From assembly GCA_002376845.1 (NCBI GenBank), contig DFOS01000008.1:3583-67582 (forward strand): a DNA stretch of 64,000 nucleotides, written 5' to 3'. This DNA comes from Bdellovibrionaceae bacterium UBA3535 (GTDB lineage: Bacteria > Bdellovibrionota > Bdellovibrionia > Bdellovibrionales > UBA840). How positions within the stretch are numbered: position 1 is the stretch's first letter; the number at the start of each line of letters is the position of its first letter. The notes beneath the pieces are model-generated. The model saw nothing but the letters and a program-made list of their open reading frames with translations, did not search any database and was not told where the DNA came from. The position numbers and the translations under genes are program-made. Positions 3,918 to 35,653 of the stretch are shown piece by piece.

Positions 3918-5264
3918 TTATCGCCTAACCTCGATGTTATAATCACTAATCTTCTTATACAGTGAAGAGCGTGAAATTTGCAAGGTTTTGGCAACATCAT
4001 CTATATCGGGCCTATCAGCTAGGGCCATTTCAATGATTTGTTTTTCATGTGAGGATAAGAGTTTATGCAAACCGGATTTCACATCTAGACGAATTGGTTC
4101 TGGATGCTGCTCATTTAGATTAAGGATCTTTGCTACATCCTCAGCCCGTAAAATAGGAAGAGGGGAAGAAAAGCAAAGGTGCTCGAAGACACGTTTGAGT
4201 TCTCGAATATTTCCAGGCCAATCGTAGGCCTTTAATTTTTCTAATGCTTCTGCTGATAGGCGCTTATTGCGGCGTGGTCTTTCTTTTTCTAAAAAATATT
4301 GACTCAATTCTTCGATGTCATCTTTGCGCTGTCTTAAAGGTGGAATGAAAATCTTTTTGCCGTTTAGTCGCCACATTAAATCTTCACGGAACTTTTCTTC
4401 TTGCACCATTTTTTCTAAATTACGATTGGTGGCAGCAATTACGCGCACATTGACTTTCAAAGTATCTTTGGCTCCGACTCGGCGAATTTCACCATCCTCT
4501 AAAAAGCGTAAGAGTTTTGCTTGCAGATTGGTGGGTAAGGCCTCAATTTCATCTAAAAATAAATCGCCGCCATTGGCAGCTTCCGCCAAGCCCATTTTAT
4601 TTTGATCTGCCCCGGTAAAGGAGCCCTTTACATGGCCAAAGACCTCGGACTCAAACAAAGACTCTGGAATGGAGGCAACATTCACTGTAATAAAAGGCGT
4701 GCTGGGACGACCTTGGTGTAAGAGTTTGGCTACTACCTCTTTCCCCGTACCCGACTCTCCTTCAATTAGTATCGGGCCATTTTCTGCGGCAAGCTCTCCA
4801 ATATTACGTTTGATCATTTGTGATATTTTACTTGAGCCAATCCAAGGATCTGTTTTTGTACAGTTCGCTCTTAAAGTGGCATCATTTAACATAAACAGCA
4901 CTTCGATTTTTTCCAGAATCAAGCGAATTTCTTCGGTGGAAAGTGGCTTGGCCAAAAAGCGTGAGGCACCGGCAACCAAGCAGCTTTCCATTAAATCTCG
5001 ATCCAAATCTCCGGAGATGGCAACAATTTCTAAATTGCTTTGTGCCTGGCTAAGATACTTTACGACTTTAAGGCCCTCGGGCTTGGTAATATCCCCGGTG
5101 AGATGCATGTCTACAAAGGCTGCATGGAAAAATTCGCCCTTGGGAATATCTTGCTTGCGTTGTACGCCTAGCATGTCCCATCCTTCGGGTAACGACATGT
5201 GAATCGACTCCAAAATTAGATCATCATCATCTACTACCAATAGTTTGTATTTTCTGTTAGCCAA
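3918..5264 (-). CDS. sigma-54-dependent response regulator (NtrC family)
   Basis: Receiver domain (LLVVDDDD...FVDMHL). AAA+ core with Walker A GESGTGKE, ESEVFGH, GSFTGA and a DEIEAL Walker B region. C-terminal Fis-type HTH (VAKTLQISRSSLYKKI). Confidence 0.9.
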   Translation of the reverse strand: MANRKYKLLVVDDDDLILESIHMSLPEGWDMLGVQRKQDIPKGEFFHAAFVDMHLTGDITKPEGLKVVKYLSQAQSNLEIVAISGDLDRDLMESCLVAGASRFLAKPLSTEEIRLILEKIEVLFMLNDATLRANCTKTDPWIGSSKISQMIKRNIGELAAENGPILIEGESGTGKEVVAKLLHQGRPSTPFITVNVASIPESLFESEVFGHVKGSFTGADQNKMGLAEAANGGDLFLDEIEALPTNLQAKLLRFLEDGEIRRVGAKDTLKVNVRVIAATNRNLEKMVQEEKFREDLMWRLNGKKIFIPPLRQRKDDIEELSQYFLEKERPRRNKRLSAEALEKLKAYDWPGNIRELKRVFEHLCFSSPLPILRAEDVAKILNLNEQHPEPIRLDVKSGLHKLLSSHEKQIIEMALADRPDIDDVAKTLQISRSSLYKKISDYNIEVRR

Positions 5265-5342
5265 GGGATTTCTCCTGTACTTTGATCGTTGGAAAGTTTA
5301 ATTTAATGCTCTGATTATAAAGCAAGCAGCAAGGGAATCTGA

Positions 5343-6536
5343 ATGAAAATCTTGTTATTAGAAAATATTCATAAGGTGGCAAAAGATTTACTCGAACAAG
5401 AGGGGTATGATGTGGATTTGCAGCCGGGTGCACTCAATGAGGGGGACCTAATAGAGGCGGCAAAATCCTATGACTGCATCGGTTTGCGCTCGAAGACCCA
5501 AGTTACTGAGAAAGTGCTGCACGCCAACCCGCATTTATTTGCCGTAGGGGCTTTCTGTATAGGTACCAACCAAATAGATACTAGTAGTGCGGCGAGGCTT
5601 GGAATTCCTGTTTTTAACGCCCCCTATGCCAATACTCGTTCGGTCGCAGAGCTGGTAATCTGTGAAATTATTGGACTGGCTAGGAAAGTCTTTCACTTAA
5701 ATCGACAGGCTCACAAGGGACAATGGCAAAAATCTGCCAAATCCTCCTATGAAGTACGTGGCAAAACCTTGGGAATTGTGGGCTATGGTCATATCGGCTC
5801 CCAAGTAAGTGTCTTGGCTGAAGCAATGGGAATGAATGTGATTTACTATGATATCATCAAAAAACTGCCCCTAGGCAATTCTACACCGGTGGAATCATTG
5901 GAGTGCTTACTTGCGGAATCTGATTTTGTAAGCCTGCATGTGCCTGCGACCGAGCTTACAACAAATATGATTCAAACCAAAGAGCTCAATCTCATGAGAA
6001 AAGGAGCCTATTTGATCAATGCCTCTCGTGGGTCTGTGGTGGATATTGACGCTTTAAATACGGCCATCAGTGAAAAGCATTTAGCCGGCGCTGCCATTGA
6101 TGTTTTTCCTGTGGAGCCAAAAAACAATGAAGAGATATTTCAAAGTCCTCTTCAGGAACAAGAAAATGTGATTTTGACTCCACATATTGGTGGTAGCACA
6201 GAAGAAGCACAAGAGAATATCGGGCGTGAAGTGGCGGATGCTTTTATACGATTTTTAAAAATGGGTTCTACCCAGGCCAGTGTGAATTTTCCGCAAGCGG
6301 ACTTGCCCCTGAAATCTGGTGTTACTCGTATGCTGAACGTTCATAAAAATGTTCCCGGTGTCTTGAGTGAGATCAATAAAATCGTGGCTAGTACAGGGGT
6401 GAACATTAGTTCGCAATACCTGGCTACCAATACAGAAATTGGTTATTTGATTATGGACATCGAAAATGAAGGGGCCAAAGGTTTTAGTGACGAAATTGCC
6501 AAGTTGCCAAATTCGATAAAAACTCGCCTTTTATAA
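5343..6536 (+). CDS. serA: D-3-phosphoglycerate dehydrogenase with C-terminal ACT domain
   Basis: 2-hydroxyacid dehydrogenase fold with NAD motif GIVGYGHIGSQV. The ~400-aa length and ACT-like C-terminus are typical of SerA. Confidence 0.85.
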   Translation: MKILLLENIHKVAKDLLEQEGYDVDLQPGALNEGDLIEAAKSYDCIGLRSKTQVTEKVLHANPHLFAVGAFCIGTNQIDTSSAARLGIPVFNAPYANTRSVAELVICEIIGLARKVFHLNRQAHKGQWQKSAKSSYEVRGKTLGIVGYGHIGSQVSVLAEAMGMNVIYYDIIKKLPLGNSTPVESLECLLAESDFVSLHVPATELTTNMIQTKELNLMRKGAYLINASRGSVVDIDALNTAISEKHLAGAAIDVFPVEPKNNEEIFQSPLQEQENVILTPHIGGSTEEAQENIGREVADAFIRFLKMGSTQASVNFPQADLPLKSGVTRMLNVHKNVPGVLSEINKIVASTGVNISSQYLATNTEIGYLIMDIENEGAKGFSDEIAKLPNSIKTRLL

Positions 6537-7904
6537 GTCAAATATCTTACCTGGGTTTAAAACAAGCTTTGGATCAAAGTGGCGCTTGATTGCGCGCATG
6601 GCCTCAACCTCAGCCGCACTACGAGAAAAAGACAAGTAGGCCTTTTTACTTAATCCCACTCCATGTTCGGCGGAAATACTGCCGCCAAATTCTTGGATTT
6701 TACTAAATAAGCTTTCATCAGATTTTCGGCACTTCTGTAAGAATTGGTCCATCGACATATTTTCTGGCTTCAAAATACTAATATGCAAATTGCCATCACC
6801 GATATGGCCAAACCAAACCACTTCAAATTCTGGGTACTCTTTTTTATAAACCTCATCAATGGAGCGCATAAATTTAGGTACATCGGAAACGCGAACCGAA
6901 ACATCATTTTTATAAGGCGTAGCAAAAGCCAATGATTCCGTGATGTCTTCACGAAGACGCCAAAAGTCTTTGGCTTGTTGTTCGCTTTGGTTAATGACAC
7001 CATCGGATAACCAGCCTTCCTCCAAACACTTTTCAAATGCGGTAAGGATTTCTCCCTCAGTCTCGCTGGATTCTAGTTCCACCTCGCACAATAAATATAT
7101 GGGGCTTTCCGTGGAAAAGGGGCGATTTAGTCCCGTGGACTTAAGCACATACTTCATCGCCAATTCGGTGAACAGTTCGAATGCTGTGATTTGTAAATTG
7201 TGCTGAAAAGTTTTAAATACGTTCATGACGGCATCGAGGTCCATGGCGCCAAGGAGTAAAACCTGTTGCGGTTTGGGTGGGCTGGTGAACTTGATTTCTG
7301 CCTCGGTAATAATACCAAGTGTGCCTTCGCTGCCAATAAACAGATGTCGAAGGTCATAGCCCGTAGCGTTTTTAACTAATGATTGGTTGAGTTTCAGGAC
7401 ATCGCCTTTTCCTGTAACAACTGTTAACGAGCTAACCCAATTGCGCATAAGCCCATAACGCAATACTTTGATGCCGCCAGCATTGGTGGCAATATTTCCT
7501 CCTATATGTGAAGAGCCGCGGGCAGCAAAGTCTACCGGAAAAAAATATCCCTGATCACGGAGGTGATTTTGCAAGTCCTCCGTAATCACTCCAGCCTCCA
7601 CATGTATGGTAGAATCAATTTCGTTGATGCTTCCTATTTGGTTTAACTTTTCTAAACTTAGGACGATTTCTCCGTCCTTGGCCACGGCGCCGCCACTTAA
7701 ACCCGTCCTACCGCCAGAGACCACAATTTTTTTACTTTCTTGATTTGCCCATTTTACTAAGGCCTGCACTTCTTGTGTGTTTTTTGGAAAAACGATGGCT
7801 TCCGGGTTGGGCTCATAGTAGCGCGTCCAATCTTGCCCATAGTTGGTAAGATCCTCTTTGTTCGTGCTAATTTGCTTTGGGTCGATTACTTCTTCAAGAC
7901 GCAT
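6531..7904 (-). CDS. FAD-linked oxidase (GlcD / D-lactate / D-2-hydroxyglutarate dehydrogenase family)
   Basis: FAD_binding_4-type N-terminus (VVSGGRTGLSGGAV) and C-terminal FAD-oxidase domain (SAEHGVGLSKK). Stop codon abuts the serA stop. Confidence 0.8.
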   Translation of the reverse strand: MRLEEVIDPKQISTNKEDLTNYGQDWTRYYEPNPEAIVFPKNTQEVQALVKWANQESKKIVVSGGRTGLSGGAVAKDGEIVLSLEKLNQIGSINEIDSTIHVEAGVITEDLQNHLRDQGYFFPVDFAARGSSHIGGNIATNAGGIKVLRYGLMRNWVSSLTVVTGKGDVLKLNQSLVKNATGYDLRHLFIGSEGTLGIITEAEIKFTSPPKPQQVLLLGAMDLDAVMNVFKTFQHNLQITAFELFTELAMKYVLKSTGLNRPFSTESPIYLLCEVELESSETEGEILTAFEKCLEEGWLSDGVINQSEQQAKDFWRLREDITESLAFATPYKNDVSVRVSDVPKFMRSIDEVYKKEYPEFEVVWFGHIGDGNLHISILKPENMSMDQFLQKCRKSDESLFSKIQEFGGSISAEHGVGLSKKAYLSFSRSAAEVEAMRAIKRHFDPKLVLNPGKIFDL

Positions 7905-11905: not shown

Positions 11906-12100
11906 GCCTGTTGGTATAAAAGAAAAACATAAAAAATTCTAGGAAATTGTAAAAAACATCGACAGAAATTGGATGCAAACTAGCATAAATTTTCTGTTTA
12001 AAAAATCGACGAAAACCAAGGGATAAATTCTTAGAATTACTAGAAAAGTCTAAAATTCGTCAGGGAAATGTCGATAGATAAAGGTCTAGTGGAGTTTGTT

Positions 12101-13105
12101 ATGAAAAGAATAATTTCTAGTGCCGCAATTTTTTCCTTAGGTGGTTTTTTTATGATCGCCTACCAGAATTGTGCCGAAATAGATCCCTCCTATGTATACG
12201 ATGATAACGTAATCCATCAACAGCAAAAGCTAGTGGATAACTCCTTTATCGAAATGTCGAATTTAAAAATTCAGCACTCCGCCCTTACCAGTTTTAATGA
12301 GGGATTGGCCTACCAATTGTCAGCAGAGTTTAGGGTAAAATATACCAATCACTTTTTGGGTTTGGAGCCCCGGCTAGAGGATACAGAGCTTTTTGTTTAT
12401 AGCGGCGATAATATGATTTTAACTTTAAATACGGATAAAATTCGTTTGCATCAAAGAGAGTGTTACGAGTCCATAAAAGAAAATGGTAGTACATATTTTG
12501 ATTGTGTATACGAGCTGCAAACCAAACAAGTCTTATCGAGAAACCCGAACTTATTAAAAACAAAGGATTTGCATATTGGTAACCGTGATCAAAAACTTGT
12601 AATCCTATTAGATAAGTATGAAGAAAATCTTGGTGGGAAATCATTTAAAATCAGTGCCATGTATGACAATCAATACACTCCTGTAAAAGAGGCTCCCAAG
12701 CGGATGCTTGCAGAATCACAAGCTAGAAGTGTAAAGAAAGTTAGAAAACAAAAGACAAAAATCACCAAAGTAAAACAGCCGCAAAGAAAAGTGGTTGAAG
12801 TAAAAAAGAAAACACCATTGCCAGAAGGGCTTTTTTGTCACATACAAGTTTTAAACCCACCGCACCTGGAGCTTTTATCGGATGTGAAAAAGGTGGGGGA
12901 GTACTACAGTGATCGCAACAATTGCCGCCAAGTCGCGATTCGTATTTCGCAAAATTACTGTGATCGCTCCCTAATGGGGGAGATCGATTACTCACTTAGT
13001 ATCAAAAATAACCAAGGCGGAAGGGTTCGCGTTCTAAATAAAGAGATCGACAGCATAGACTGCGAGAAAGAAAATTCTCGGGGGCTTGCCCAAAGAAATT
13101 TCTAG
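12101..13105 (+). CDS. hypothetical lipoprotein
   Basis: Signal MKRIISSAAIFSLGGFFMIAYQNC followed by Cys. Central basic patch (KKVRKQKTKITKVKQPQRK). No recognisable domain. Confidence 0.5.
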   Translation: MKRIISSAAIFSLGGFFMIAYQNCAEIDPSYVYDDNVIHQQQKLVDNSFIEMSNLKIQHSALTSFNEGLAYQLSAEFRVKYTNHFLGLEPRLEDTELFVYSGDNMILTLNTDKIRLHQRECYESIKENGSTYFDCVYELQTKQVLSRNPNLLKTKDLHIGNRDQKLVILLDKYEENLGGKSFKISAMYDNQYTPVKEAPKRMLAESQARSVKKVRKQKTKITKVKQPQRKVVEVKKKTPLPEGLFCHIQVLNPPHLELLSDVKKVGEYYSDRNNCRQVAIRISQNYCDRSLMGEIDYSLSIKNNQGGRVRVLNKEIDSIDCEKENSRGLAQRNF

Positions 13106-13137: not shown

Positions 13138-13416
13138 ATGGACTATTTCGAGCCGCAAAATCCGGCCTATATAAAGAAAGAGCGAGCCAAGGCCAGGGAG
13201 CTGCGCAAGAGCCAGTGGTGGAAACAGAAATTGGCCACAGGCATCTGTTATTATTGCGAGCAACGCTTCGATAAGGAAGATTTGAATATGGATCATCTGA
13301 TTCCCCTAGTTCGAGGTGGAAAAACTAGCAAATCCAACTGCGTCCTCTCTTGTAAGGCCTGCAATTTCAAGAAAAAGCACAAAACCCCGGTGGACCTTAT
13401 TTTAGAGGAGCTCTAA
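13138..13416 (+). CDS. small free-standing HNH endonuclease
   Basis: 92 aa with zinc-ribbon CYYC...CKAC and HNH core DHLIPLVRGGKTSKSN. Confidence 0.8.
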   Translation: MDYFEPQNPAYIKKERAKARELRKSQWWKQKLATGICYYCEQRFDKEDLNMDHLIPLVRGGKTSKSNCVLSCKACNFKKKHKTPVDLILEEL

Positions 13417-13634
13417 TTTTATGCCAATTTATTGAGCGTTTTATGGGGTGTGGGTTCTGGATGAAGGAAGACATTCCTTGCCTAGAATGACAGATTTTTC
13501 AACATTGGGGCCTCGCTTAATTGCTTAGAATTCAGGTAAATTCTTATTTTTGTTTGGTTTTTTCCGCTTTAGTCTTGCCATAAAGGGACATTCTTCGCTT
13601 AAATAAGCGTAGTTCCAAATCAACGAGGTGAAAC

Positions 13635-15542
13635 TTGGCGCAGCAGACAAAAATTGTATCCAGCTCTACGGCGGAATATTTTGCAAAAAATTTACAGCAG
13701 GTGGGCTTCTCGTCCCCCACAAAAGCCGTGCTTACCACATTGAAAGAGGCGGTGGATAACTCTCTGGATGCTTGTGAAATGGCGGGTATTTTGCCCGAAC
13801 TTACCATTGAGATTAAAAAAATTGGTACCGGCTCACAGAAAAATACCGATTTGATCGAAATATCCGTGGAGGACAATGGGCCAGGGCTTGAGGCCGAGGA
13901 TTTGGCAAAAGTATTTGGCGAGTACTTGGCCTCCTCAAAGTTTGGACGCGGACAATGCTCCCGCGGACAACAAGGGATTGGTATTTCTGCCGCAACCACT
14001 TGGGCGCAGTTGACCAACGCCAAAGGCGTAGTGGTCACCTCGAAAACCAAGCGCATGCGAAAGGCAGTGCAGGGCCTCGTGAATGTTGATATCAAGGGTA
14101 ACAAGGGGATGTTTTTAAATAAAAAAAGCATCGATTGGGATAAAGAGCATGGCCTGAAAGTAGAATTCAAAATTGATGGGCGCATTCAGCTAAATGGTGA
14201 TGGGGGGCTGTTGACCTATCTAGAGGGCACCACCCTTTTAAACCCCCATGTAAAATTTAATTACAAATTGATGGACAATCCTTGGGTAAAGATAGATCGA
14301 GTTAGTAAAGATGTGCCTAGCATTCCGCCGCCAACTGATCCGCACCCGCACACCATGAAGCTGGGTGAGTTTATGACCCATGCACATATCTATGGAAATA
14401 TGAAAGTGGGCAAGTGGCTCAAAACAAGTTTCTCCCGTGTTTCAGAGAACGTTATAAAAAACTTTGTTAAAAACGGTTTAGAAAAAAAGTACCTCAATCA
14501 AACTTTACAAAAACTATCGGACGAAGAGTTTAAAAAGGCCTATACGGCCATTCAAAAAACCGATTTGATGTCACCGAGCACCAAGTCTGTACTGACGGTT
14601 GGAGAGGAGTCCCTAGCAAAAAGTATTCGGCGTATGGGAGAAGTGGATTTTTTCTCAGTAATAACTAGAAAGCCCAAAATATGTGACTTCAAGCCCGTAG
14701 TGGTGGAAGTTGCCATTGCAAGATTTTTAGATCGCGGTGGAGAGCATGACGATCCTGTACGACTTCTGCGCTTTGCGAACCGTGTGCCGCTACAATTCGA
14801 TAAGGGAAATTGCGCCATTACAAAATCCATTGAATCCGTGAACTGGCGCTCCTACGGACTGTCGCAGCCAAAAAATTCTTTGCCGCGCGGACCTTATATT
14901 TTTGCGGTGAGTGTGGTTTCTCCTTTCATTAAATTTAAAAATGCTTCAAAAGAAACGATCGATGCGTCAGACGAGTTGGTGGAGGAGTTGCGCCGAGCCC
15001 TAATGCAGGCGGGACAAAACCTTTCTAGGCATATCAAAAGAGAAGCTAGAGCTGCAGATGTAGAAAGGAAAAAGCAGCACATAGAAAAGTTTGGCCCCAT
15101 TCTTGTGGACACATTGGCGCGCATAGTGAAAGCGCCAGAAAAGAGGCGCAAAAAAGCGCAAGATGGTTTGCATAAGATTTTAGGACGTGACACCAAGGCA
15201 GAAGAGCAAAAGCTAGAGGTTGCCGAACAGCGCTTAATGGATTTAAAAGCAAAACGTTCCCACGTTTTAGAAACAAATGAAGAGGGCGAAGGCGCTAGCC
15301 AAGAGGCTCCAGTCACCGAAGTGAAGGCGAAGAAAAAGAAAACAGCAACGAAAAAGCAGGCTGCGAAGAAAAAAGCAAAAACGGCAAGCAAAAAGAAGGC
15401 CACCAAAAAGAAAACGGCTACAAAAAAGAAAGCTAGTAAAAAGAAAACGGCTACAAAAAAGAAAGCTAGTAAAAAGCAGGCTACTAAGAAAAAGACAAAA
15501 GCTAAGAAGGCCACAAAAAAGAAAACTAAGAGGACTCGATGA
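13635..15542 (+). CDS. top6B: DNA topoisomerase VI subunit B (type IIB, GHKL ATPase) with Lys-rich C-terminal tail
   Basis: Bergerat-fold motifs LKEAVDNSLDA, VEDNGPGL, GQQGIGIS. Alignable by eye to archaeal Top6B through PHPH...ITRKPK...LLRFANRVPLQFD. TTG start preceded by SD gaggtg. ATGA overlap with top6A. Confidence 0.88.
   Translation: MAQQTKIVSSSTAEYFAKNLQQVGFSSPTKAVLTTLKEAVDNSLDACEMAGILPELTIEIKKIGTGSQKNTDLIEISVEDNGPGLEAEDLAKVFGEYLASSKFGRGQCSRGQQGIGISAATTWAQLTNAKGVVVTSKTKRMRKAVQGLVNVDIKGNKGMFLNKKSIDWDKEHGLKVEFKIDGRIQLNGDGGLLTYLEGTTLLNPHVKFNYKLMDNPWVKIDRVSKDVPSIPPPTDPHPHTMKLGEFMTHAHIYGNMKVGKWLKTSFSRVSENVIKNFVKNGLEKKYLNQTLQKLSDEEFKKAYTAIQKTDLMSPSTKSVLTVGEESLAKSIRRMGEVDFFSVITRKPKICDFKPVVVEVAIARFLDRGGEHDDPVRLLRFANRVPLQFDKGNCAITKSIESVNWRSYGLSQPKNSLPRGPYIFAVSVVSPFIKFKNASKETIDASDELVEELRRALMQAGQNLSRHIKREARAADVERKKQHIEKFGPILVDTLARIVKAPEKRRKKAQDGLHKILGRDTKAEEQKLEVAEQRLMDLKAKRSHVLETNEEGEGASQEAPVTEVKAKKKKTATKKQAAKKKAKTASKKKATKKKTATKKKASKKKTATKKKASKKQATKKKTKAKKATKKKTKRTR
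15324..15539 (+). repeat. Lys/Ala/Thr/Ser-rich low-complexity coding repeat (Top6B tail, 72 aa)
   Basis: Sequence is [72 protein letters not shown]. Contains an exact 33-nt tandem duplication at 15408-15440 / 15441-15473 (KKTATKKKASK x2). Confidence 0.9.
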
Positions 15543-16693
15543 AAAAAGCCAGACTCAATCAAGCAGATATAAGCAAAAAATCCAAACTTCTATGCGAAAG
15601 AATGTTGGCCGATCTGGAGCAGGCAAAAAGGCCTGTACTCGAAGCGGTTAAGTGTAGTTTGGACAACTCTTTTTACAAGCCCAGTGTGGGTTACTTAACA
15701 CCTGGAGATAAGCGGGTCCGCACGGAATTAAATGTTTCCAGTGTGCAAAAACTATCGCGAACCGTTTTTATGCTAGAGATTCTTTTGCGCAATTTAGGGA
15801 CTGGCCAAGTGAACACAAAAAGGGAGCTCTACTATATCTCAAAAGGTATGGTGAAGCACAATAAGGAGCTCAAGGTCTTAGATTTTGATGAACAAACCGA
15901 ATCGGATGCAATCATCGACTTTATTTCGGATATGCTCGAGGTATATCGTGAGGAGTTAAATTGCTTTGCCAACGACCGAGGAGGGCAAACCTATTCCAAG
16001 CAATTGATTGTGGAAGAAACTTTACCGAACGGCAAAACGGCAACCATTGATTTAAGCACTTTGGGTACTTCGCCGTTTCAACCTAAGAACAAGCCGCAAA
16101 ATTTAAAACTTAGAAAACGCGGAAAGATTGATTTCGTATTGATCGTGGAATCAGAAGGTACGGCCAATACACTTGTTGCTAACGGCTTTACGGACCGTAA
16201 TAAGTGTATTGTGATTGGTGCTCAGGGGGTTCCCTCCAACGCTGTTCGCGGTTGGGCTCGTACCATTCAAAACCAGTTGGATGTACCCATGTATTTTTTT
16301 GGCGATTTGGATGCCTATACGCTGCAAAATATCTACCGCACATTAAAAGCCGGTAGTGCTGCCAGCCTGATACGAAATAGTGAGTTTTCCGCCCCCTCCG
16401 TGCGCTTTTTAGGGGTTCTACCAGAGGATGTACAGCAATACGATTTGCACTATTACAATGTAACGGAAAAAGATGCTTCCGAGCTGCGATCCATCAAAAA
16501 GGCGCAAGATGCCCTTAAAAATGATCCATTTTTCCAAGACAAGAAAAATAAAAAAATTGCGGCAATTTTGAAATGGTTGGTAAAAGAAAAAAAGCGTTGT
16601 GAACAGCAGGCTTTTTGGATGGTTAACCCGAAAGACCCTGTTACACCTGAAAAAATCATTTTGGATAAAATCAAAAAAGGCGCCTGGGTCTAA
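15539..16693 (+). CDS. top6A: DNA topoisomerase VI subunit A (Spo11/Top6A)
   Basis: Catalytic-Tyr region KRELYYISK. Toprim Glu (LIVESEGTA) and DxD (FFGDLDAYT). The 384-aa size is typical of Top6A. Confidence 0.88.
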   Translation: MKKARLNQADISKKSKLLCERMLADLEQAKRPVLEAVKCSLDNSFYKPSVGYLTPGDKRVRTELNVSSVQKLSRTVFMLEILLRNLGTGQVNTKRELYYISKGMVKHNKELKVLDFDEQTESDAIIDFISDMLEVYREELNCFANDRGGQTYSKQLIVEETLPNGKTATIDLSTLGTSPFQPKNKPQNLKLRKRGKIDFVLIVESEGTANTLVANGFTDRNKCIVIGAQGVPSNAVRGWARTIQNQLDVPMYFFGDLDAYTLQNIYRTLKAGSAASLIRNSEFSAPSVRFLGVLPEDVQQYDLHYYNVTEKDASELRSIKKAQDALKNDPFFQDKKNKKIAAILKWLVKEKKRCEQQAFWMVNPKDPVTPEKIILDKIKKGAWV

Positions 16694-17169
16694 TCAAACT
16701 TGCGTTTTTCGCGCTCCACTCTGGGGCGCTCGGCAAAGTCAAAAAACGAGGGAGGTAGTTTTTCTACCTCACGGCGCATGCGCTCAAGCTCCACCTTTTT
16801 CTTTTCAGCCGCTTCTTTTGCGTTTTTGTCGCGCTCTTTGATGAATTCTTTGCGGTTTTTCTCTTCAGCAATTTGCGCCTGCTTTTGCTGTTCAAGGTAT
16901 TCTTCATAGGCTTTTTGCTCGGCAGCCTTTTGTTCCGCCATTTTTTTGCGCTTTTCTATGATGTATTCTTTTCTGGCCTGCTCTTTTTCCTGTTCGAGTT
17001 TTTCACGTTTTTTTCTTTGCTCTATTTGTGCTCGTTTTTGTTTTTCCTTTTGCTCTACTTTTTGGCGAATGTAATCCGCGTAATTTGGGTCTTCTTGGAA
17101 GCGAATTTCTTCGTCCAAATTTTGGTAGTAGATCTGTGAGAAGCAAAGGCTAAGGAGTAAAAACCACAT
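16690..17169 (-). CDS. hypothetical secreted Lys/Glu/Gln-rich coiled-coil protein
   Basis: Trimmed to the ATG at 17169 (signal-like MWFLLLSLCFSQIYY). About 120 aa of EK-rich heptad-like sequence. Overlaps the top6A stop by 4 nt, tail to tail. Confidence 0.45.
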   Translation of the reverse strand: MWFLLLSLCFSQIYYQNLDEEIRFQEDPNYADYIRQKVEQKEKQKRAQIEQRKKREKLEQEKEQARKEYIIEKRKKMAEQKAAEQKAYEEYLEQQKQAQIAEEKNRKEFIKERDKNAKEAAEKKKVELERMRREVEKLPPSFFDFAERPRVEREKRKFD

Positions 17170-17258
17170 ATGTTTAGTATTGCTTAGAATGTACAAAAAC
17201 CCAACGGATCTGTTAAGTGCAACTGGACGCAGGACTGGCTGACACAGCGCTAATAGCG

Positions 17259-17286
17259 TTGAGACTGAAGGCACTTCTGTTATAAA
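17259..17286 (+). promoter_or_regulatory. candidate sigma-70-type promoter of the aconitase gene
   Basis: TTGAGA (17259-17264), 16-nt spacer, TATAAA (17281-17286), 26 nt upstream of the ATG at 17312, which has SD taggag. Confidence 0.35.
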
Positions 17287-17311: not shown

Positions 17312-19939
17312 ATGGCGATTGAAACAACACCTAAAATGGTAAAATCTGTGTATGCAAATACTCGTAAAAATTTAGATATTATACGCAAGCGCTTAAAGCG
17401 CCCCCTTACGTTGGCAGAAAAAATTCTTTATGGACATTTAAGAGAGCCAAAAACTCAAGATCTTACGCGCGGAAAAAGTTTCTTGATGCTACAGCCAGAT
17501 CGCGTGGCCATGCAAGATGCAACGGCACAGATGGCCTTGTTGCAGTTCATGCTTGCGGGAAAAGAAGAGGCAGCTGTTCCCTCTACCGTGCATTGTGATC
17601 ATTTGATTCGTGCCAACGCGGGTGAAGAAATTGATATGCAAATTGCCATGAGTGAAAACAAAGAGGTATTTGATTTCTTAGAAAGTGTTTCTTCACGCTA
17701 TGGAATTGGCTTTTGGAAGCCAGGTGCTGGCATCATCCATCAGGTGGTTTTAGAAAATTACGCATTTCCAGGTGGTTTGATGATTGGTACAGATTCTCAT
17801 ACGCCTAATGCTGGTGGCTTGGGAATGTGTGCTGTGGGTGTTGGCGGAGCCGATGCCGCGGATGTGATGAGCGGTTTGGCTTGGGAAGTGAAAAACCCAA
17901 AACTTATCGGCGTGCATCTTAAAGGCGAGCTTAGTGGCTGGGCTTCACCTAAAGATGTGATCCTAAAACTATGTGATATCTTAACCGTAAAGGGCGGTAC
18001 CAATTGCATTGTGGAGTATTTTGGTGAAGGTACAGAGTCTTTATCTTGTACAGGTAAGGGCACGATTTGCAATATGGGAGCCGAACTTGGAGCTACTTGT
18101 TCTGTATTTCCTTATGATCACCGTATGGGCGATTATTTAAAAGCTACGAAACGAAAAGATTTAGCGGAAATAGCCAATGCCAATATGGATTTGGTTACTG
18201 CCGATGCGGAAGTATTGGAAAACCCAGAAACTTATTATGATCAGATTATTGAGATTGATTTATCGGGCTTAGAGCCACACTTGGTAGGGCCGCATACCCC
18301 CGATCTTGCCCACAAAATTAGTGATATGGGCGATGATGCCAAAGAGAATGGTTGGGATACGCACCTGTCGGCAGCATTGATCGGCTCTTGTACGAACTCT
18401 TCTTATGAAGATATAGGTCGGGCTGCTGACTTGGTAGAGCAGGCAAAAAGCAAGGGACTAAAAATGAAAACGCCTTTTTATGTTACTCCTGGCTCTATGC
18501 AAATTCATAAAACCATTGAACGTGATGGACAGATGCAGTCCTTTAAGGATGTTGGCGCAGTCGTGTTGGCCAATGCATGTGGACCTTGTATCGGACAATG
18601 GAAGCGAGATGATATTGAAAAAGGTGATGTAAACACCATTGTTACCTCGTTCAATAGAAATTTTCGCGGCAGAAACGATGCCAACCCCGAAACCTTAGGT
18701 TTTATTGGGGGGCCCGAGCTGGTAACCGCTTTAGGTTTTGCTGGGGAGTTGGATTTTAACCCTATGACCGATAGTATACCACTAGAGGATGGCGGGGAAT
18801 TTCGTTTTCAGGCACCGAAAGCACCCGAGTTTCCAGAAAATGGTTTTATTGCCGATGAACAAGGTTATGTAGAACCAAAAGGCGAGGGGGTAGATGTGAA
18901 AGTTTCCCCTGCCTCGGATCGCTTGCAACTGCTTACGCCCTTTCAGCCCTGGAAAGGCAAAGATTTAGAGGATTTGCCTCTATTGCTAAAGGCAAAAGGT
19001 AAGTGTACGACCGATCATATTTCTCCAGCTGGTCCTTGGTTGAAATATCGAGGACATCTAGACAATATTTCGGACAATATGTTCATCGGGGCCGTAAATG
19101 CTTTTACTGATGAAATTGGTACAGTCAATCACCCTATTAGTGGCGATAAAAATCAAAACACATCAAAGGTAGCCCGTGATTTAAAATCAAAAGGCAAACA
19201 ATGGGTAGTAGTTGGTGACGATAACTATGGCGAAGGCAGTTCCCGTGAACATGCAGCAATGAGCCCGAGGTTTTTAGGTGCAGCAGCCGTTATAGTGAAA
19301 TCCTTTGCTCGCATTCATGAAACCAATTTAAAAAAGCAAGGAGTGCTCGCGTTAACCTTTGTTCATCCAGAGGATTACGATAAGGTTCGTGAGGACGATG
19401 CCATTTCGATCAAAGGTTTGAAGGGTTTTGCTCCTGGAAAAAATATGACCATGGTTTTGAGTCATGCCGATGGTTCCAAGGAGGAAATCGAGGTTCAACA
19501 TTCTTATAATAAGGAACAGATTGAGTGGTTCAAGGCTGGCTCGGCGTTGAATGTAATTCGTCAAGGCTTGGACAAGCCTAAAAAGAAAAAGGCTACTAAG
19601 AAGAAGGCGACGAAGAAGAAAGCTACTAAAAAGAAAGCCACCAAGAAGAAGGTAACCAAGAAAAAGGCGACGAAGAAGAAAGCTACAAAGAAAAAGGCCA
19701 CCAAGAAGAAGGCGACGAAGAAGAGAGCTACTAAGAAAAAGGCCACCAAGAAGAAGGTAACCAAGAGGAAGGCGACGAAGAAGAAAGCTACTAAGAAAAA
19801 GGCCACTAAAAAGAAAGCAACCAAGAAGAAAGCCACTAAAAAGAAAGCAACCAAGAAGAAGGCAACCAAGAAGAAGGCAACTAAGAAAAAGGCGACGAAG
19901 AAGAAAGCTATTAGAAATAAAGCCAAACACAAGAAATAA
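17312..19939 (+). CDS. acn: aconitate hydratase (mitochondrial-type, ~755-aa core) fused to a 119-aa poly-(KKKAT) tail
   Basis: Core motifs are [44 protein letters not shown] and [10 protein letters not shown] (Fe-S Cys ligands), plus the swivel domain [15 protein letters not shown]. The tail is in frame with no intervening stop. Confidence 0.92.
19580..19936 (+). repeat. 15-nt-period in-frame tandem repeat encoding ~22 KKKAT-type pentapeptides
   Basis: Hand parse into codons. Units start at 19583 + 15n. A higher-order 105-nt duplication (19598-19702 vs 19703-19807) shows about 7 differences. An exact ~29-30-nt tandem duplication lies around 19802-19860. Confidence 0.95.
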
Positions 19940-32478: not shown

Positions 32479-34953
32479 TTATTTCATACCAAGATGCGCT
32501 TTGATGGCTTCAATCTCTTTTTTCAATTCGGCATTTTCTTTTTCTAAAGCTTTTACCTTATGACTCATTTCCACAACAGCCTTTAGTTGATAGAGCTGAA
32601 AACTCACGCCATAGCGAATACGCTTATAACCATTTTCATCGGTAACCACCATCTCAGGAAAAATCTTCTCGAGCTCCTGCGCAATCAAGCCTACTTCATG
32701 TCCTTCGCGTCCATGAATATGTTGGTTCTCTTTTTTCCAGTCGTATTCAACAACATTGATCTGCGATACTTTGTCGAGGGTGGATTCGATAGGGGAGATG
32801 TTTTCTTTGAAGCGGACGTCGGATACGCATGTACCTGTTTGTGGCGTCATACCATCATCAACTATACAATCATATACTTGCACATCATTGTTTGCTAACA
32901 AAGACATAGTTGGAAATCCATCAAGCCCATGTTTGAAAGTTATATCTCCATTATCCATTACGTTAATATCCCAATTTTCGGGACTAAAATTGTTTACTAG
33001 CTTTAAAGATGTTTCTGACTGACTTATTGTATGAACTTCAAGACTAGCAATTGGAGCATTAGTCCCAATCCCCAATTTACTGCCTGGATTGGGGAGAAAT
33101 AGTTCGCCAGTTGAAATGTCTCCTTCCATTAGTATGTTAGCACCACTTCCCAAAAGGAATCTATCATTCAGAGGGCCAGGCTCCGTATCATAGACATTAT
33201 ATCCTATAACAACATTATTGTTCCCGCTTGAAGCATCTCTATAGGCGTTAGCACCTATCAATACATTTCCAGATCCCTCAACGTTCCCGCCAGCTCTATA
33301 TCCTAAAGCAGTATTATTATTAAAAGTAGTTAAATATTGCAGAGAACCAAATCCTATAGCAGTATTCATCCCTCCTGATGTAATGGAGCTAATAGAGTTA
33401 CTGCCTAAAGCTGAGTTATAGCTTCCTGTAGTAATGGTACTGCCTGTTGCAAACCCAACACCAGTGTTATGGGTACCGGTGGGCAAATAATCAGTACCAA
33501 TAATCATGTTGTTCCCGCTGAATGAAGCGTCAGTTAGGCTGTCTATAGTGCCGCCGCCGCCACCAGGTGTACCACACACAAATTGATTCATGGCTGAATT
33601 CCATTGAAGAGCATCTGCGCCAGTACAATCAGTGCCTCCTCCTAGACCTCCAATTGAGGCGTCCATAAAAAGGTCATTAACAAAATTGTGAACAGATTGT
33701 TCGGAAGGTATCACATCTGTCGCCATCCCGAGCCCGCCAGTTTGGACACCAGTAATTGTGTTTCCGCCAATAGTCACATTTCCAGAAAATGTGGCGTTGC
33801 CGGTAGTAGTAAGCACACCAGTGAGACTTAGGTCGCCAGCTATATTAACAATCGATGCAGAATTAGAAATTATTGAATCTTCTAGGCCGTTTCCACCAGA
33901 ATTGATTCTAGGAATCTTACCCACAGTACCAGAGATTCCAGCTCCAGTTTGGTCCGTTTCGCAGCCAAATGCAGTGCCAGTCCAAGTAAGAAAACTACCT
34001 GCCTCACAAATGCCACTATCTATACTCAGGTTCGCAGCACCTGATGCCGCTCCTCCACTTAAGCCATTACCTGCAGTAACATCGGTGATATCGCCAACAC
34101 TAGAATCACATGCCCAAGTACTGGGTCCTTTCATTAATACTTGACCTGTAGTACACAAGGCATCATCTAGCTCTGCAAGACCTACTGTATCAGCTTGTAA
34201 AGTAGTTACACCGGTGTTACTCAATTCAATATCGCCGGTAATATCTACAGCTGAGGCTGTACCGGCATTGCCCACATATACATAGCTATCAGTTAGCGCT
34301 GTAGGCAAACCACCACCGCCAGTTTCATCTGTCTCACAGTCAAAGTTCGTACCATTCCAAGTAATTTTATTTCCGGTACCGGAACAGGAAGCAATATTAG
34401 AGGTATCAATAGAAGCGTTTAATACACCACCTGTTAATGAACCTACAATTCCATTTCCTGGAGTGAATGTGTGAGCAAAATCATTAGCTGATTTATCACC
34501 TAGTCTGTTTGCCATCATTGCCATGGGCACGGACTGAATGGGCTGTTTTGGTAGTGTCTCAATATTAGTTTGGTCATTGAAGGTAATTTCAATTAAAAAA
34601 GGTTCACCTGGGTTGTAAGAGGCCGAACAAGATGCTTCCCCTAATATTCCACTTTTGTAAAAGTAATTTTCTAAAAAACCGTTGCTAAAAGTGTTAGGAG
34701 AAGAGCCCTTACCAATATCTAGATAAAAAGCACCGTTACTTGTACTTAAATCATTGTCTAGATGCTGTTCTTCATATATTTTACAATCACCATCAATATC
34801 ATAAAGAGCAACGGTGATGTCGACATCAGGTGCTGTTATAGGGCTGCCACCTAAATCAGTTAAGACTCCGCTATAAGTGAATCCCCATTGTTGCTGTGCA
34901 TGGGCTGTGCCCATAAAAATAAAAAATAGAAAAAACGTACAAAGAGTTTTCAT
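32479..34953 (-). CDS. secreted tail-fibre-like protein with C-terminal peptidase-S74 intramolecular-chaperone domain
   Basis: Trimmed to the ATG at 34953 (signal MKTLCTFFLFFIFMGTAHA/QQ). Four Cys-bracketed C-x(n)-W-x(n)-C modules. Gly/Asn/Ser-rich Hep_Hag-like repeats (NSALGSNS...NTAIGFGS...NTALGYRAG...NVLIGANA...NVVIGYNV). C-terminus SDVRFKENI...VVEYDWK...GLIAQELEKIFPEMV followed by a coiled coil. Confidence 0.8.
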   Translation of the reverse strand: MKTLCTFFLFFIFMGTAHAQQQWGFTYSGVLTDLGGSPITAPDVDITVALYDIDGDCKIYEEQHLDNDLSTSNGAFYLDIGKGSSPNTFSNGFLENYFYKSGILGEASCSASYNPGEPFLIEITFNDQTNIETLPKQPIQSVPMAMMANRLGDKSANDFAHTFTPGNGIVGSLTGGVLNASIDTSNIASCSGTGNKITWNGTNFDCETDETGGGGLPTALTDSYVYVGNAGTASAVDITGDIELSNTGVTTLQADTVGLAELDDALCTTGQVLMKGPSTWACDSSVGDITDVTAGNGLSGGAASGAANLSIDSGICEAGSFLTWTGTAFGCETDQTGAGISGTVGKIPRINSGGNGLEDSIISNSASIVNIAGDLSLTGVLTTTGNATFSGNVTIGGNTITGVQTGGLGMATDVIPSEQSVHNFVNDLFMDASIGGLGGGTDCTGADALQWNSAMNQFVCGTPGGGGGTIDSLTDASFSGNNMIIGTDYLPTGTHNTGVGFATGSTITTGSYNSALGSNSISSITSGGMNTAIGFGSLQYLTTFNNNTALGYRAGGNVEGSGNVLIGANAYRDASSGNNNVVIGYNVYDTEPGPLNDRFLLGSGANILMEGDISTGELFLPNPGSKLGIGTNAPIASLEVHTISQSETSLKLVNNFSPENWDINVMDNGDITFKHGLDGFPTMSLLANNDVQVYDCIVDDGMTPQTGTCVSDVRFKENISPIESTLDKVSQINVVEYDWKKENQHIHGREGHEVGLIAQELEKIFPEMVVTDENGYKRIRYGVSFQLYQLKAVVEMSHKVKALEKENAELKKEIEAIKAHLGMK
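32482..32823 (-). other. predicted auto-cleaving intramolecular chaperone (peptidase S74) domain of the fibre protein
   Basis: The last 114 aa start at Ser750 of the 863-aa ORF numbering, within CVS-DVRFKENI. This matches the S-D-x-R-x-K cleavage motif of endosialidase-type tail-spike chaperone domains. Confidence 0.65.
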
Positions 34954-34954
34954 T

Positions 34955-35653
34955 TTATAACCCCTTAATTTTAAAATGTGTGGTGCCATCGACACCAGAT
35001 TTAGAAATACTTGATCCAATATTACTATTTTTAATACTAAAATCTGTGGAGCCAGGTACATTGCCACCACCAGCTAGAACTTCGCCATTGCGGGGCCCAC
35101 TAGGTGCGGTGCCATCATCCAAACACGTCGGAGGCGCCCCAATCGAGCTGGCCACATGATTTGCTAAACCCGGAAAGCTCGCATTGATTTCCACCGTGAT
35201 TTCCGGGGCATCAAAATTAATGCCATTGGCTTGTCCTATTAAATATACTTCATTAAGTTCACCATTATTTAAGCCAGCCGAGGCTCGGCAACCTGTGCCT
35301 AAAGGCTGTAAGTGTAAATATACTTTTATGTCGCGGGCAGCGCCTCTTGGAGCCAAGATTTCAATATTACCACCAGCGGGAACATAGCCTTGAAATAAAC
35401 CTTGCTCCGGTGAGCACGTATTCGCTGGAGCACTAATCAAATCGGGCGCCGTAATGTTTACGCCAAAGCAGTAATCATAGCCAACCGGAAAGGCGCTCAT
35501 GGAACCAACAACCTTACCTTGCAACTGTTGCTGAGTAGGAGCTTTGATCACGAGCTTAGATTTTGTTTCATCTTCAAAGAAACGTGAACAAGCTGTGGTG
35601 AAAACCAGCAGCGTAATAAGCCCTAAAGTTTTAAAAATACCAAAGATTTGCAT
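34955..35653 (-). CDS. hypothetical lipoprotein co-oriented with, and 1 nt upstream of, the fibre gene
   Basis: Signal plus lipobox LLVFTTAC. Cys-containing beta-rich body with a Gly-rich C-terminus. The start region reads GTG-TTG-ATG, and the ATG at 35653 was chosen. Confidence 0.55.
   Translation of the reverse strand: MQIFGIFKTLGLITLLVFTTACSRFFEDETKSKLVIKAPTQQQLQGKVVGSMSAFPVGYDYCFGVNITAPDLISAPANTCSPEQGLFQGYVPAGGNIEILAPRGAARDIKVYLHLQPLGTGCRASAGLNNGELNEVYLIGQANGINFDAPEITVEINASFPGLANHVASSIGAPPTCLDDGTAPSGPRNGEVLAGGGNVPGSTDFSIKNSNIGSSISKSGVDGTTHFKIKGL

What the first reader, a model, noticed from the sequence alone, without database searches (positions are those of the whole stretch)
13138..16693. 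Archaeal-type topoisomerase VI operon in a bacterial chromosome, preceded by a free-standing HNH nuclease
Seen in the sequence:
- A translationally coupled (ATGA overlap) gene pair has clear Top6B motifs: GHKL ATPase EAVDNSLDA / VEDNGPGL / GQQGIG, and transducer ...ITRKPK...LLRFANRVPLQFD.
- Top6A motifs are also clear: Tyr region RELYYISK, Toprim E in IVESEG, and DxD in GDLDAY.
- A 92-aa HNH gene sits 219 nt upstream in the same orientation.

Established knowledge: type IIB Topo VI is the archaeal/plant enzyme and occurs only sporadically in bacteria. Its role there, alongside gyrase and Topo IV, is essentially unstudied.

Inference: this is either a horizontally acquired decatenase or a lineage-specific replacement. 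The upstream HNH gene could be a hitch-hiking selfish nuclease or a functional partner.
Basis: partly seen in the sequence, partly recalled or inferred. Interest (0 to 1): 0.7.

Follow-up and report, generated by a model that had tools for sequence, protein, structure and literature searches.

The report
Bdellovibrio-type topoisomerase VI operon, known
The window carries an intact topoisomerase VI gene pair (B then A subunit) in a marine Bdellovibrio-like bacterium, but the enzyme is already documented in Bdellovibrio and conserved across that order, and the small HNH gene upstream is a conserved housekeeping-type neighbour rather than a selfish element.

Summary
HNH (13138-13416), top6B (13635-15542) and top6A (15539-16693, ATGA overlap) are intact, same-strand genes.

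The window comes from a marine Bdellovibrionales bacterium, matching Tara Oceans and NCBI contigs. Topo VI is not sporadic in this order: the genome scan found 253 stretches encoding relatives, and all 80 loci kept are Bdellovibrionales at 71-85% Top6A identity in conserved synteny. Published work already lists B. bacteriovorus Topo VI (Bd2864) and reports gyrase present and Topo IV absent. The pair is therefore most likely the vertically inherited decatenase of the lineage.

The HNH protein belongs to the Gmet_0936 family (PDB 4H9D), a weak nicking enzyme proposed to act in repair. It lies upstream on the same strand in 54 of 66 informative loci. Unrelated genes often separate it from top6B. 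In other phyla it sits beside folC and UvrD, and two other bacterial Topo VI loci have no HNH. It is neither selfish nor a proven partner.

Two lineage-specific details may be new. The basic KGRR DNA-sensing loop of archaeal Top6B is replaced by an invariant LNG[DE]GG. Top6B also ends in a disordered lysine-rich tail.

The parts
13138..13416 (+). Free-standing HNH (HNN-type, zinc-bound) nuclease gene, 92 aa, of the Gmet_0936/GmeHNHE family. Zinc ligands are C37, C40, C72 and C75. Catalytic residues are H53, N67 and N76.
   Evidence: Pfam HNH_5 4e-14. PDB 4H9D E 8e-29 over 79 residues. Key residues are at least 95% conserved in 52 Bdellovibrionales orthologues. Upstream of top6B on the same strand in 54 of 66 loci.
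13417..13634 (+). Intergenic region of 218 nt between HNH and top6B. It holds a candidate top6BA promoter, TTGCCA (13575-13580), N18, TTAAAT (13599-13604), and the ribosome-binding site GAGGTG (13625-13630). No terminator-like hairpin lies on the + strand.
   Evidence: Sequence read. No + strand terminator or consensus promoter was reported here. The region is poorly conserved among relatives, and only the TTGCCA-N18-TTAA element is shared with the closest relative L002. The promoter assignment is inference.
13635..15542 (+). top6B, the Topo VI B subunit (635 aa). It contains a GHKL ATPase, an H2TH domain, a transducer with a long stalk helix, and a disordered tail.
   Evidence: NF003218 513 bits (cut-off 274), TIGR01052 393.8 bits (cut-off 380.7), Topo-VIb_trans 2.8e-46. 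PDB 2Q2E_B E 6e-78. AF2 model plus Foldseek: the top 16 hits are all Topo VI-B.
13743..13772 (+). Bergerat N-box KEAVDNSLDA (aa 37-46), with general base E38 and Mg/ATP ligand N42.
   Evidence: Aligned to S. shibatae E38/N42. E38 and N42 are invariant in alignment A1.
14190..14207 (+). Loop LNGDGG (aa 186-191), which occupies the position of the M. mazei KGRR T-segment-sensing loop (K186, R188, R189). It carries no basic residue here.
   Evidence: Gapless HMMER alignment. The motif is invariant as LNG[DE][GA]G in the great majority of 72 Bdellovibrionales Top6B, with Q for N in a few. It holds 0 K/R in 11 of 12 Bdello-type representatives, while 87 of 128 other representatives have 2 or more. 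The functional importance of KGRR comes from PMC5922973.
14574..15068 (+). Transducer domain (aa 314-478), including the WKxY motif W404-R-S-Y407 and switch lysine K439.
   Evidence: Pfam PF09239 covers 314-478. W404, Y407 and K439 are invariant in A1. FKNASKET[IV] is conserved in 72 of 72 sequences.
15267..15539 (+). Disordered C-terminal tail (aa 545-635). The last 75 aa (15315-15539) hold 38 K, 2 R and 1 acidic residue, in imperfect KKKxT(A) repeats.
   Evidence: pLDDT about 30 with no secondary structure. Composition. Imperfect 15-33 nt tandem repeats. Most relatives have a variable acidic-then-basic tail.
15539..16693 (+). top6A, the Topo VI A subunit (384 aa), with a winged-helix (CAP) domain carrying R95/Y99 and a Toprim domain carrying E204, D256 and D258. 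Its start overlaps the top6B stop (ATGA).
   Evidence: Pfam TP6A_N 6e-15 and Toprim 3e-39. PDB 1D3Y E 6e-37 with catalytic residues aligned. These residues are conserved in 80 of 80 loci. Overlap read.

Best explanation
top6B-top6A is a translationally coupled operon for a functional type IIB topoisomerase, an A2B2 Topo VI. ATP-driven dimerisation of the Top6B GHKL domains captures one DNA duplex. That duplex passes through a transient double-strand break made by Top6A Tyr99 together with the Toprim Mg2+ site.

The pair is a vertically inherited core gene set of the order Bdellovibrionales. It most likely serves as the cell's dedicated decatenase and relaxase, taking the place of Topo IV, which is reported absent from B. 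bacteriovorus.

The upstream HNH gene encodes a Gmet_0936-type zinc-bound HNN nuclease, a weak nicking enzyme thought to act in DNA repair. It is a long-standing syntenic neighbour with no demonstrated mechanistic tie to Topo VI.

Shown here: gene integrity, family membership, catalytic residues, fold, synteny and distribution. Inferred: enzymatic activity, the decatenase role, independence of HNH, and DNA tethering by the lysine-rich Top6B tail.
For: - Family and fold: both Top6B NCBIfam equivalog models score above cut-off, and all Pfam domains score above gathering threshold. All catalytic residues align to solved Topo VI structures. The Top6A residues are 80/80 conserved and the Top6B motifs nearly invariant in 72 sequences. 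The AF2 model matches Topo VI-B with TM 0.7-0.85.
- Vertical inheritance: 253 stretches encode relatives, and all 80 loci kept are Bdellovibrionales at 71-85% Top6A identity. The bolA-grx / HNH / top6B / top6A (/ acn) neighbourhood is conserved. GC content is 0.41-0.44, as in the rest of the window.
- Role: Allen & Maxwell 2024 list B. bacteriovorus with GyrA/GyrB but not among the seven species that also have ParC/ParE. They argue that Topo VI supplies the decatenase where Topo IV is missing. Topo VI is a preferential decatenase according to the abstract of PMC8837201.
- HNH: 4H9D E 8e-29, with its biochemistry described in PMC3765158. Orthologues are intact. Homologues in other phyla sit by folC and UvrD with no Topo VI. 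Acidobacteriota and Anaerohalosphaeraceae Topo VI loci have no HNH. In B. bacteriovorus strains, adhesin-like genes lie directly upstream of top6B.
Against: - No activity data exist for any bacterial Topo VI.
- Absence of Topo IV was taken from the literature for B. bacteriovorus. It was not verified for this organism, since only 64 kb were available and no gyrase or Topo IV gene lies in them.
- Top6A scores 397 bits against NF003335, slightly below that model's 424-bit cut-off.
- The KGRR loop is required for strand passage in M. mazei Topo VI and is non-basic here. The enzyme may therefore sense DNA crossings differently, or be less active, than the archaeal model.
- HNH is on the same strand in 54 of 66 loci, sometimes only 40-66 nt upstream. 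No terminator lies between the genes in the window. Co-transcription and a functional link therefore cannot be excluded.
Confidence: 0.87

Rival explanations
1. HNH is a dedicated accessory factor of bacterial Topo VI, co-transcribed with top6BA. For example, it might nick next to trapped 5'-phosphotyrosyl Top6A-DNA adducts to release them, as Mre11 does for Spo11.
For: The same-strand upstream position is kept in 54 of 66 Bdellovibrionales loci, 38 of them within 500 bp and some 40-66 nt away. No terminator-like hairpin lies in the 218-nt gap. The Gmet_0936 authors suggested the enzyme needs a partner protein to be recruited to DNA.
Against: - The adjacency is interrupted by 0.6-4 kb in 16 loci, and HNH is absent from the flank in 12.
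- In B. bacteriovorus the genes directly upstream of top6B are Ig-domain or Gp38-like adhesins.
- The same HNH family at 57-60% identity sits next to folC and UvrD in genomes with no neighbouring Topo VI.
- Two Topo VI loci of other bacterial phyla lack HNH.
- The intergenic sequence is not conserved.
Confidence: 0.1
2. HNH is a selfish or homing endonuclease, or a remnant of a restriction or defence system, that hitch-hiked next to the operon.
For: HNH domains are common in homing endonucleases, Cas9, PtuB and restriction enzymes. Weak domain-level hits to these were obtained.
Against: - The hits cover only the roughly 50-70-aa HNH core of much larger proteins. No PtuA-like ATPase, methylase or intron/intein context is present.
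- The gene is at a fixed chromosomal position across an order. It diverges 48-64%, in step with its neighbours, and its active-site and zinc residues are conserved.
- Its closest characterised relative is a chromosomal protein from Geobacter.
Confidence: 0.02
3. The Topo VI pair is a recent horizontal acquisition, an island, in this particular genome.
For: Topo VI is of archaeal type. Published trees place bacterial Topo VI inside archaeal clades, implying ancient transfers.
Against: - There is no compositional anomaly.
- Synteny is conserved across the order.
- The nearest non-Bdellovibrionales Top6B is only 39% identical, against 55-75% within the clade.
- No tRNA or other Rfam-listed RNA gene lies in the window, and no mobility gene lies among the ORFs read between 10 and 20 kb.
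Confidence: 0.02
4. The pair is a Spo11/Top6BL-like break-forming machine rather than a strand-passage topoisomerase.
For: The KGRR loop, which is needed for strand passage in M. mazei, is lost.
Against: All ATPase motifs, the switch lysine, the WKxY motif and the H2TH domain are retained and invariant. Meiotic Top6BL-type partners are typically degenerate in these elements (own knowledge). Both Top6B NCBIfam equivalog models are passed.
Confidence: 0.02

Closest known systems
Bdellovibrio bacteriovorus topoisomerase VI (Bd2864 and adjacent subunit gene), as listed by Allen & Maxwell 2024 (PMC11302465) and a 2023 FEMS Microbiol Rev review on the B. bacteriovorus chromosome (PMC11318664)
   Same: Orthologous gene pair. 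Top6A is about 74% and Top6B about 70% identical to B. bacteriovorus strains. Gene order is the same, and so are all motifs, including the LNG[DE]GG loop and a basic C-terminal end.
   Different: The window protein has a much longer and more lysine-rich tail: 38 K in the last 75 aa, against about 10 in B. bacteriovorus. HNH is directly adjacent here, whereas several B. bacteriovorus strains have adhesin-like genes directly upstream of top6B.
Methanosarcina mazei Topo VI (PDB 2Q2E, 9O0G), the mechanistic model for type IIB topoisomerases
   Same: Same domain architecture and fold: Top6B E 6e-78 with TM about 0.7, and Top6A E 4.5e-23. The catalytic Tyr, Toprim acidic residues, ATPase motifs, WKxY motif and switch Lys are all present.
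   Different: Only about 30% identity. The KGRR loop is replaced by LNGD(GG). The M. mazei C-terminal domain is replaced by a helical extension plus a disordered polylysine tail.
Gmet_0936 / GmeHNHE of Geobacter metallireducens (PDB 4H9D; PMC3765158)
   Same: E 8e-29 over 79 residues. Same size class, same two CxxC zinc sites and the same H-N-N catalytic residues.
   Different: Different genomic context. Related homologues from other phyla sit next to folC and UvrD, not Topo VI. The biological function of the family is unknown.
Lysine-repeat C-terminal tail of actinobacterial topoisomerase I (Streptomyces TopA; PMC5714199)
   Same: A topoisomerase ending in lysine repeats. [quoted passage not shown] Bdellovibrio also grows as a multi-chromosome filament.
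   Different: Unrelated enzyme class (type IA versus type IIB). The analogy is functional only and is untested here.

Membership tests
Topo VI subunit B (type IIB topoisomerase ATPase subunit) | GHKL/Bergerat ATP-binding motifs: N-box ExxxN, DxGxG, GxxGxG | tested here: met
   KE38AVDN42SLDA, VEDNGPG and GQQGIG align to S. shibatae and M. mazei. They are invariant in 51- and 72-sequence alignments.
Topo VI subunit B (type IIB topoisomerase ATPase subunit) | H2TH domain plus transducer domain with switch lysine, and curated family model scores | tested here: met
   PF09239 2.8e-46. NF003218 513 bits > 274. TIGR01052 393.8 bits > 380.7. K439 is aligned to S. shibatae K427.
Topo VI subunit B (type IIB topoisomerase ATPase subunit) | Three-dimensional fold of Topo VI-B | tested here: met
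   AF2 model with pLDDT 83-96 over most of residues 20-540. The 16 best PDB matches are Topo VI-B chains, E 1e-47 to 1e-35, TM 0.6-0.85.
Topo VI subunit B (type IIB topoisomerase ATPase subunit) | Conserved DNA-sensing elements described for M. mazei: Stalk/WKxY and the basic KGRR loop | tested here: inconclusive
   WKxY is present (W404-R-S-Y407). The KGRR position reads LNGD, with no basic residue, across the whole order. The loop is a functional element of the model enzyme, not a formal family criterion. 41 of 128 other representatives also have 1 or fewer K/R there.
Topo VI subunit B (type IIB topoisomerase ATPase subunit) | ATP-dependent strand passage (relaxation or decatenation) with subunit A | not testable with these tools
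   Requires purified enzyme.
Topo VI subunit A / Spo11 family | Winged-helix (CAP) domain with catalytic Tyr and preceding Arg | tested here: met
   R95-E-L-Y-Y99 is aligned to M. jannaschii R99/Y103. Conserved in 80 of 80 loci. PF04406 55 bits > 26.
Topo VI subunit A / Spo11 family | Toprim domain with metal-binding Glu and DxD | tested here: met
   E204, D256 and D258 are aligned to E197, D249 and D251. Conserved in 80 of 80 loci. PF21180 135 bits > 24.
Topo VI subunit A / Spo11 family | NCBIfam equivalog cut-off | tested here: inconclusive
   The best model, NF003335, scores 397 bits against a 424-bit cut-off, just below. Coverage is full length (residues 3-381).
Gmet_0936-type stand-alone HNH (HNN) nuclease | Beta-beta-alpha-Me core with catalytic H...N...N and two CxxC zinc ligand pairs in a protein of about 90-130 aa | tested here: met
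   C37/C40, H53, N67, C72/C75 and N76 correspond to Gmet_0936 C38/C41, the catalytic His, N68, C73/C76 and N77. They are at least 95% conserved in 52 orthologues.
Gmet_0936-type stand-alone HNH (HNN) nuclease | Mn2+-dependent nicking of (damaged) DNA | not testable with these tools
   Known only for the Geobacter protein.
Homing / selfish HNH endonuclease | Sporadic distribution, or intron, intein or mobile-element context | tested here: not met
   Fixed syntenic position in 54 of 66 loci, with no mobile context.
Anti-phage defence nuclease (Septu PtuB, restriction enzymes) | Full-length match and presence of the partner gene (PtuA ATPase, methylase) | tested here: not met
   PADLOC hits cover only the HNH core of larger proteins. 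Neighbours have no PADLOC hits.

The most novel reading that the evidence does not exclude
Bdellovibrionales Topo VI may be a mechanistic variant of the archaeal enzyme.

- It has replaced the basic KGRR T-segment-sensing loop, essential in M. mazei, with an invariant acidic or neutral LNG[DE]GG loop.
- It carries a disordered polycationic C-terminal tail of up to about 75 residues, half of them lysine in this organism.
- The tail could tether the enzyme to DNA or the nucleoid and change how it finds crossings. That would adapt it to unlinking the many chromosome copies made in the predatory filament.
- The conserved upstream HNH nuclease could be an accessory factor.
Probability: 0.15. Interest if true: 0.5.

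Novelty: already known. Interest (0 to 1): 0.22.

Why it matters
As found, it matters little. Standard annotation pipelines would name both subunits. The presence of Topo VI in Bdellovibrio, with Topo IV absent, is already published.

Its value lies in context. No bacterial Topo VI has been characterised biochemically or genetically. Bdellovibrionales are a tractable lineage in which Topo VI appears to be the only non-gyrase type II enzyme, and cells must unlink many chromosome copies before synchronous septation.

Two order-wide sequence differences are noted here: loss of the KGRR loop and a variable basic tail. They give concrete mutagenesis targets if someone takes up that enzyme.

Tried and rejected
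- Recent island or HGT: rejected on composition, order-wide synteny, and the absence of tRNA or other Rfam-listed RNA genes in the window and of mobility genes among the ORFs read between 10 and 20 kb.
- Selfish or defence HNH: rejected. PADLOC and NCBIfam hits are domain-level only, and the orthologues are intact and positionally fixed.
- HNH as a universal Topo VI partner: tested from both directions. Three HNH homologues outside the order and two Topo VI loci of other phyla showed no co-localisation.
- Compensation idea (tail gained because loop lost): there is no cross-lineage support. The few non-Bdellovibrionales Top6B with basic tails, such as P0142 and P0200, keep basic residues in the loop.
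- Conserved regulatory element in the HNH-top6B spacer: the alignment of seven spacers shows almost no conservation.
- The closest outgroup Top6B (P0127, 39% identity) was examined for an adjacent Top6A or HNH. Neither was recognisable.

Full report
**Observation.** They are HNH at 13138-13416 (92 aa), top6B at 13635-15542 (635 aa) and top6A at 15539-16693 (384 aa). top6B starts at a TTG, 4 nt after a GAGGTG ribosome-binding site. Its TGA stop overlaps the top6A ATG as ATGA. The HNH-top6B spacer is 218 nt.

Profile searches are unambiguous.
- Top6B hits Topo-VIb_trans (2.8e-46) and HATPase_c. It passes two NCBIfam equivalog models: NF003218 at 513 bits against a 274-bit cut-off, and TIGR01052 at 393.8 against 380.7.
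- Top6A hits TP6A_N and the Top6A/Spo11 Toprim domain above Pfam thresholds. It scores 397 bits on NF003335, just under that model's 424-bit cut-off.
- HNH hits HNH_5, HNH and HNH_4.

**Catalytic integrity.** Alignment to solved structures puts every essential residue in place.
- In Top6A, R95 and Y99 (RELYY) match M. jannaschii R99 and Y103. E204 matches E197. D256 and D258 match D249 and D251.
- In Top6B, E38 and N42 form the N-box. GQQGIG, the switch lysine K439 and the WKxY motif (W404-R-S-Y407) are all present.
- The Top6A residues are conserved in 80 of 80 related loci. The Top6B motifs are conserved in 72 of 72 relatives, with only conservative variation in the N-box and WKxY motifs.
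- An AlphaFold2 model built on a 51-sequence alignment is confident over most of residues 20-540. Its 16 best PDB matches are Topo VI-B chains (E 1e-47 to 1e-35). GyrB and ParE follow at about 1e-12.

**Whose genome, and how unusual.**
- Exact matches to the window's proteins come from Tara Oceans station 132 surface water and from an NCBI contig of 677,539 bp. Tara already tags Top6B as COG1389/K03167.
- A scan of one genome per species found 253 stretches encoding relatives of Top6A. All 80 loci kept are Bdellovibrionales, Pseudobdellovibrionaceae or loosely labelled MAGs. They include complete B. bacteriovorus chromosomes, at 71-85% identity.
- The neighbourhood recurs: bolA-grx on the minus strand, then HNH, top6B, top6A, often followed by aconitase.
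- GC content across the genes (0.41-0.44) equals that of the window. No tRNA or other Rfam-listed RNA gene lies in the window.
- In a library of 1.84 billion representatives, the Bdellovibrionales Top6B cluster sits at 55-75% identity. The next protein is at 39%.

The pair is therefore an old, vertically inherited core feature of the order, not a sporadic island.

**What is already published.**
- A 2023 review of the B. bacteriovorus chromosome names topoisomerase VI (Bd2864) as an archaeal/plant-type enzyme of this bacterium.
- Allen & Maxwell 2024 list B. bacteriovorus (Pseudobdellovibrionaceae) among 17 bacterial families with Topo VI.
- They find GyrA and GyrB in all of those families. ParC and ParE occur only in seven species of Pseudomonadota and Terrabacteria, not in Bdellovibrionota.
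- They argue that Topo VI supplies the specialised decatenase where Topo IV is missing.
- They also state that the role of bacterial Topo VI still needs experimental work.

The annotation stands and the novelty falls.

**The HNH gene.**
- Its closest characterised relative is Gmet_0936 of Geobacter metallireducens (PDB 4H9D, E 8e-29 over 79 residues).
- That protein is a dimeric, zinc-bound HNN nuclease with weak Mn2+-dependent, sequence-nonspecific nicking activity. It prefers acid- or heat-damaged DNA. Its authors propose a repair role and a need for a partner, and its biological function is unknown.
- The window protein keeps the four zinc cysteines (C37, C40, C72, C75) and H53, N67 and N76. 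These are at least 95% conserved in 52 Bdellovibrionales orthologues.
- Of 66 loci with at least 700 bp upstream of top6B, HNH lies upstream on the same strand in 54. It is within 500 bp in 38, some only 40-66 nt away. It is 0.6-4 kb away in 16 and absent from the flank in 12, including three Bdellovibrio genomes.
- In B. bacteriovorus strains kdesi (L059) and Bd5 (L075), the genes directly upstream of top6B encode Ig-domain or Gp38-like adhesins. top6BA must therefore be expressed without HNH there.
- Outside the order, homologues at 57-60% identity sit next to folC and a UvrD-type helicase, with no Topo VI nearby. In one case the gene overlaps folC by 4 nt.
- Topo VI loci of an Acidobacteriota and an Anaerohalosphaeraceae genome have no HNH neighbour.
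- PADLOC gives only domain-level hits, and no partner gene is present.

HNH is thus a conserved chromosomal gene in long-standing synteny. It is not a selfish element. A dedicated partnership with Topo VI is possible but unsupported, and I put it at about 0.1.

**Mechanism (inferred from the family).** Two Top6B subunits dimerise on ATP and trap a T-segment. Two Top6A subunits cleave the G-segment through Y99 with Mg2+ bound at E204, D256 and D258. The T-segment then passes through the break and the break is resealed. Topo VI is a preferential decatenase according to the abstract of PMC8837201. In a lineage with gyrase but no Topo IV, the enzyme most likely unlinks replicated chromosomes and relaxes positive supercoils. 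Bdellovibrio replicates several chromosome copies in one filament before synchronous division, so the demand for decatenation is plausibly high. That link is my inference.

**Lineage-specific details that may be new.**
1. *The KGRR loop.*
 - The M. mazei loop (K186, R188, R189) lines the T-segment cavity. Its neutralisation or charge reversal abolishes strand passage.
 - It aligns without gaps to L186-N-G-D189 in the window protein.
 - The motif LNG[DE][GA]G is nearly invariant in 72 Bdellovibrionales sequences.
 - Among the library representatives, 11 of 12 Bdello-type loops have no K/R. By contrast, 87 of 128 others have two or more.
2. *The C-terminal tail.*
 - After the stalk helix, Top6B ends in a 91-residue segment predicted to be disordered (pLDDT about 30).
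 - Its last 75 residues hold 38 Lys and 2 Arg.
 - Most relatives have a shorter acidic-then-basic tail.
 - Across about 780 kb of related loci, long ORFs ending in strongly lysine-rich 40-mers are almost only Top6B (14 loci plus the window) and, in this sublineage, aconitase.
 - A precedent exists. Lysine repeats at the C-terminus of Streptomyces TopA stabilise DNA binding and confer the processivity needed in multigenomic hyphae.
 - I found no cross-lineage correlation between tail gain and loop loss. A compensation model is therefore speculative.

**Verdict.** The annotation is correct. The claims of rarity and of a selfish nuclease are not supported. The finding is an ordinary, already documented feature of Bdellovibrionales, with minor undescribed sequence peculiarities that would interest only someone setting out to characterise a bacterial Topo VI.

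Noticed in passing
window 17312-19939 (+); tail 19574-19936: The mitochondrial-type aconitase (TIGR01340, 1112 bits) carries a 121-aa C-terminal (KKKAT)n tail of about 21 repeats. Ala and Thr codons are spread over 3-4 synonymous codons each, so the repeat is kept at the peptide level rather than by recent slippage. The identical 875-aa protein occurs in five independent sources. Among relatives, only the closest one (L002) has such a tail, with a different unit (KKKAPS). All 15 other complete aconitases end at the core.
   Followed up: partly
window 14190-14207 (Top6B aa 186-191): The basic KGRR loop that M. mazei Topo VI needs for strand passage is replaced by LNGDGG. This replacement is nearly invariant across 72 Bdellovibrionales Top6B.
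   Followed up: yes
L085 (Logan SRR33677528 contig, 23 kb), Top6B-like gene at 5001-6659: The closest non-Bdellovibrionales relative of the window Top6B (P0127, 39% identity) lies in a phage- or mobile-element-like context, with RecA, a DnaB-type helicase, a DEAD helicase and many orphan ORFs. No recognisable Top6A is adjacent. The 391-aa upstream ORF has no Pfam hit and no similarity to Top6A.
   Followed up: partly
L081 6001-6303, L082 6001-6312, L084 6001-6303: Outside Bdellovibrionales, Gmet_0936-type HNH genes recur next to folC (a 4-nt overlap in L082) and a UvrD-type helicase. This may hint at the family's real functional context in DNA repair.
   Followed up: no
L059 69-608 (-), B. bacteriovorus strain kdesi, about 3.6 kb upstream of top6B: A 179-aa pentapeptide-repeat protein lies here. 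Proteins of this kind (Qnr, MfpA) are DNA mimics that bind type IIA topoisomerases (own knowledge). It is probably a coincidence.
   Followed up: no
window 12068-13105 (+) and 16690-17274 (-): Two ORFs without any Pfam or NCBIfam hit flank the cluster. One is a 345-aa protein with a lysine-rich middle segment, shared only with L002 at 36% identity. The other is a 194-aa E/K-rich, probably coiled-coil protein on the opposite strand, which abuts the top6A stop.
   Followed up: no
window 32479-35070 (-): An 863-aa protein with a C-terminal Peptidase_S74 domain, the intramolecular chaperone of endosialidase or tail-fibre type. It is a phage-tail-fibre-like protein in a predatory bacterium.
   Followed up: no
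window 13575-13604: A candidate sigma-70-like promoter for top6BA: TTGCCA, N18, TTAAAT, ending 30 nt upstream of the TTG start. It is shared only with the closest relative L002 and was not reported by the consensus scan.
   Followed up: partly
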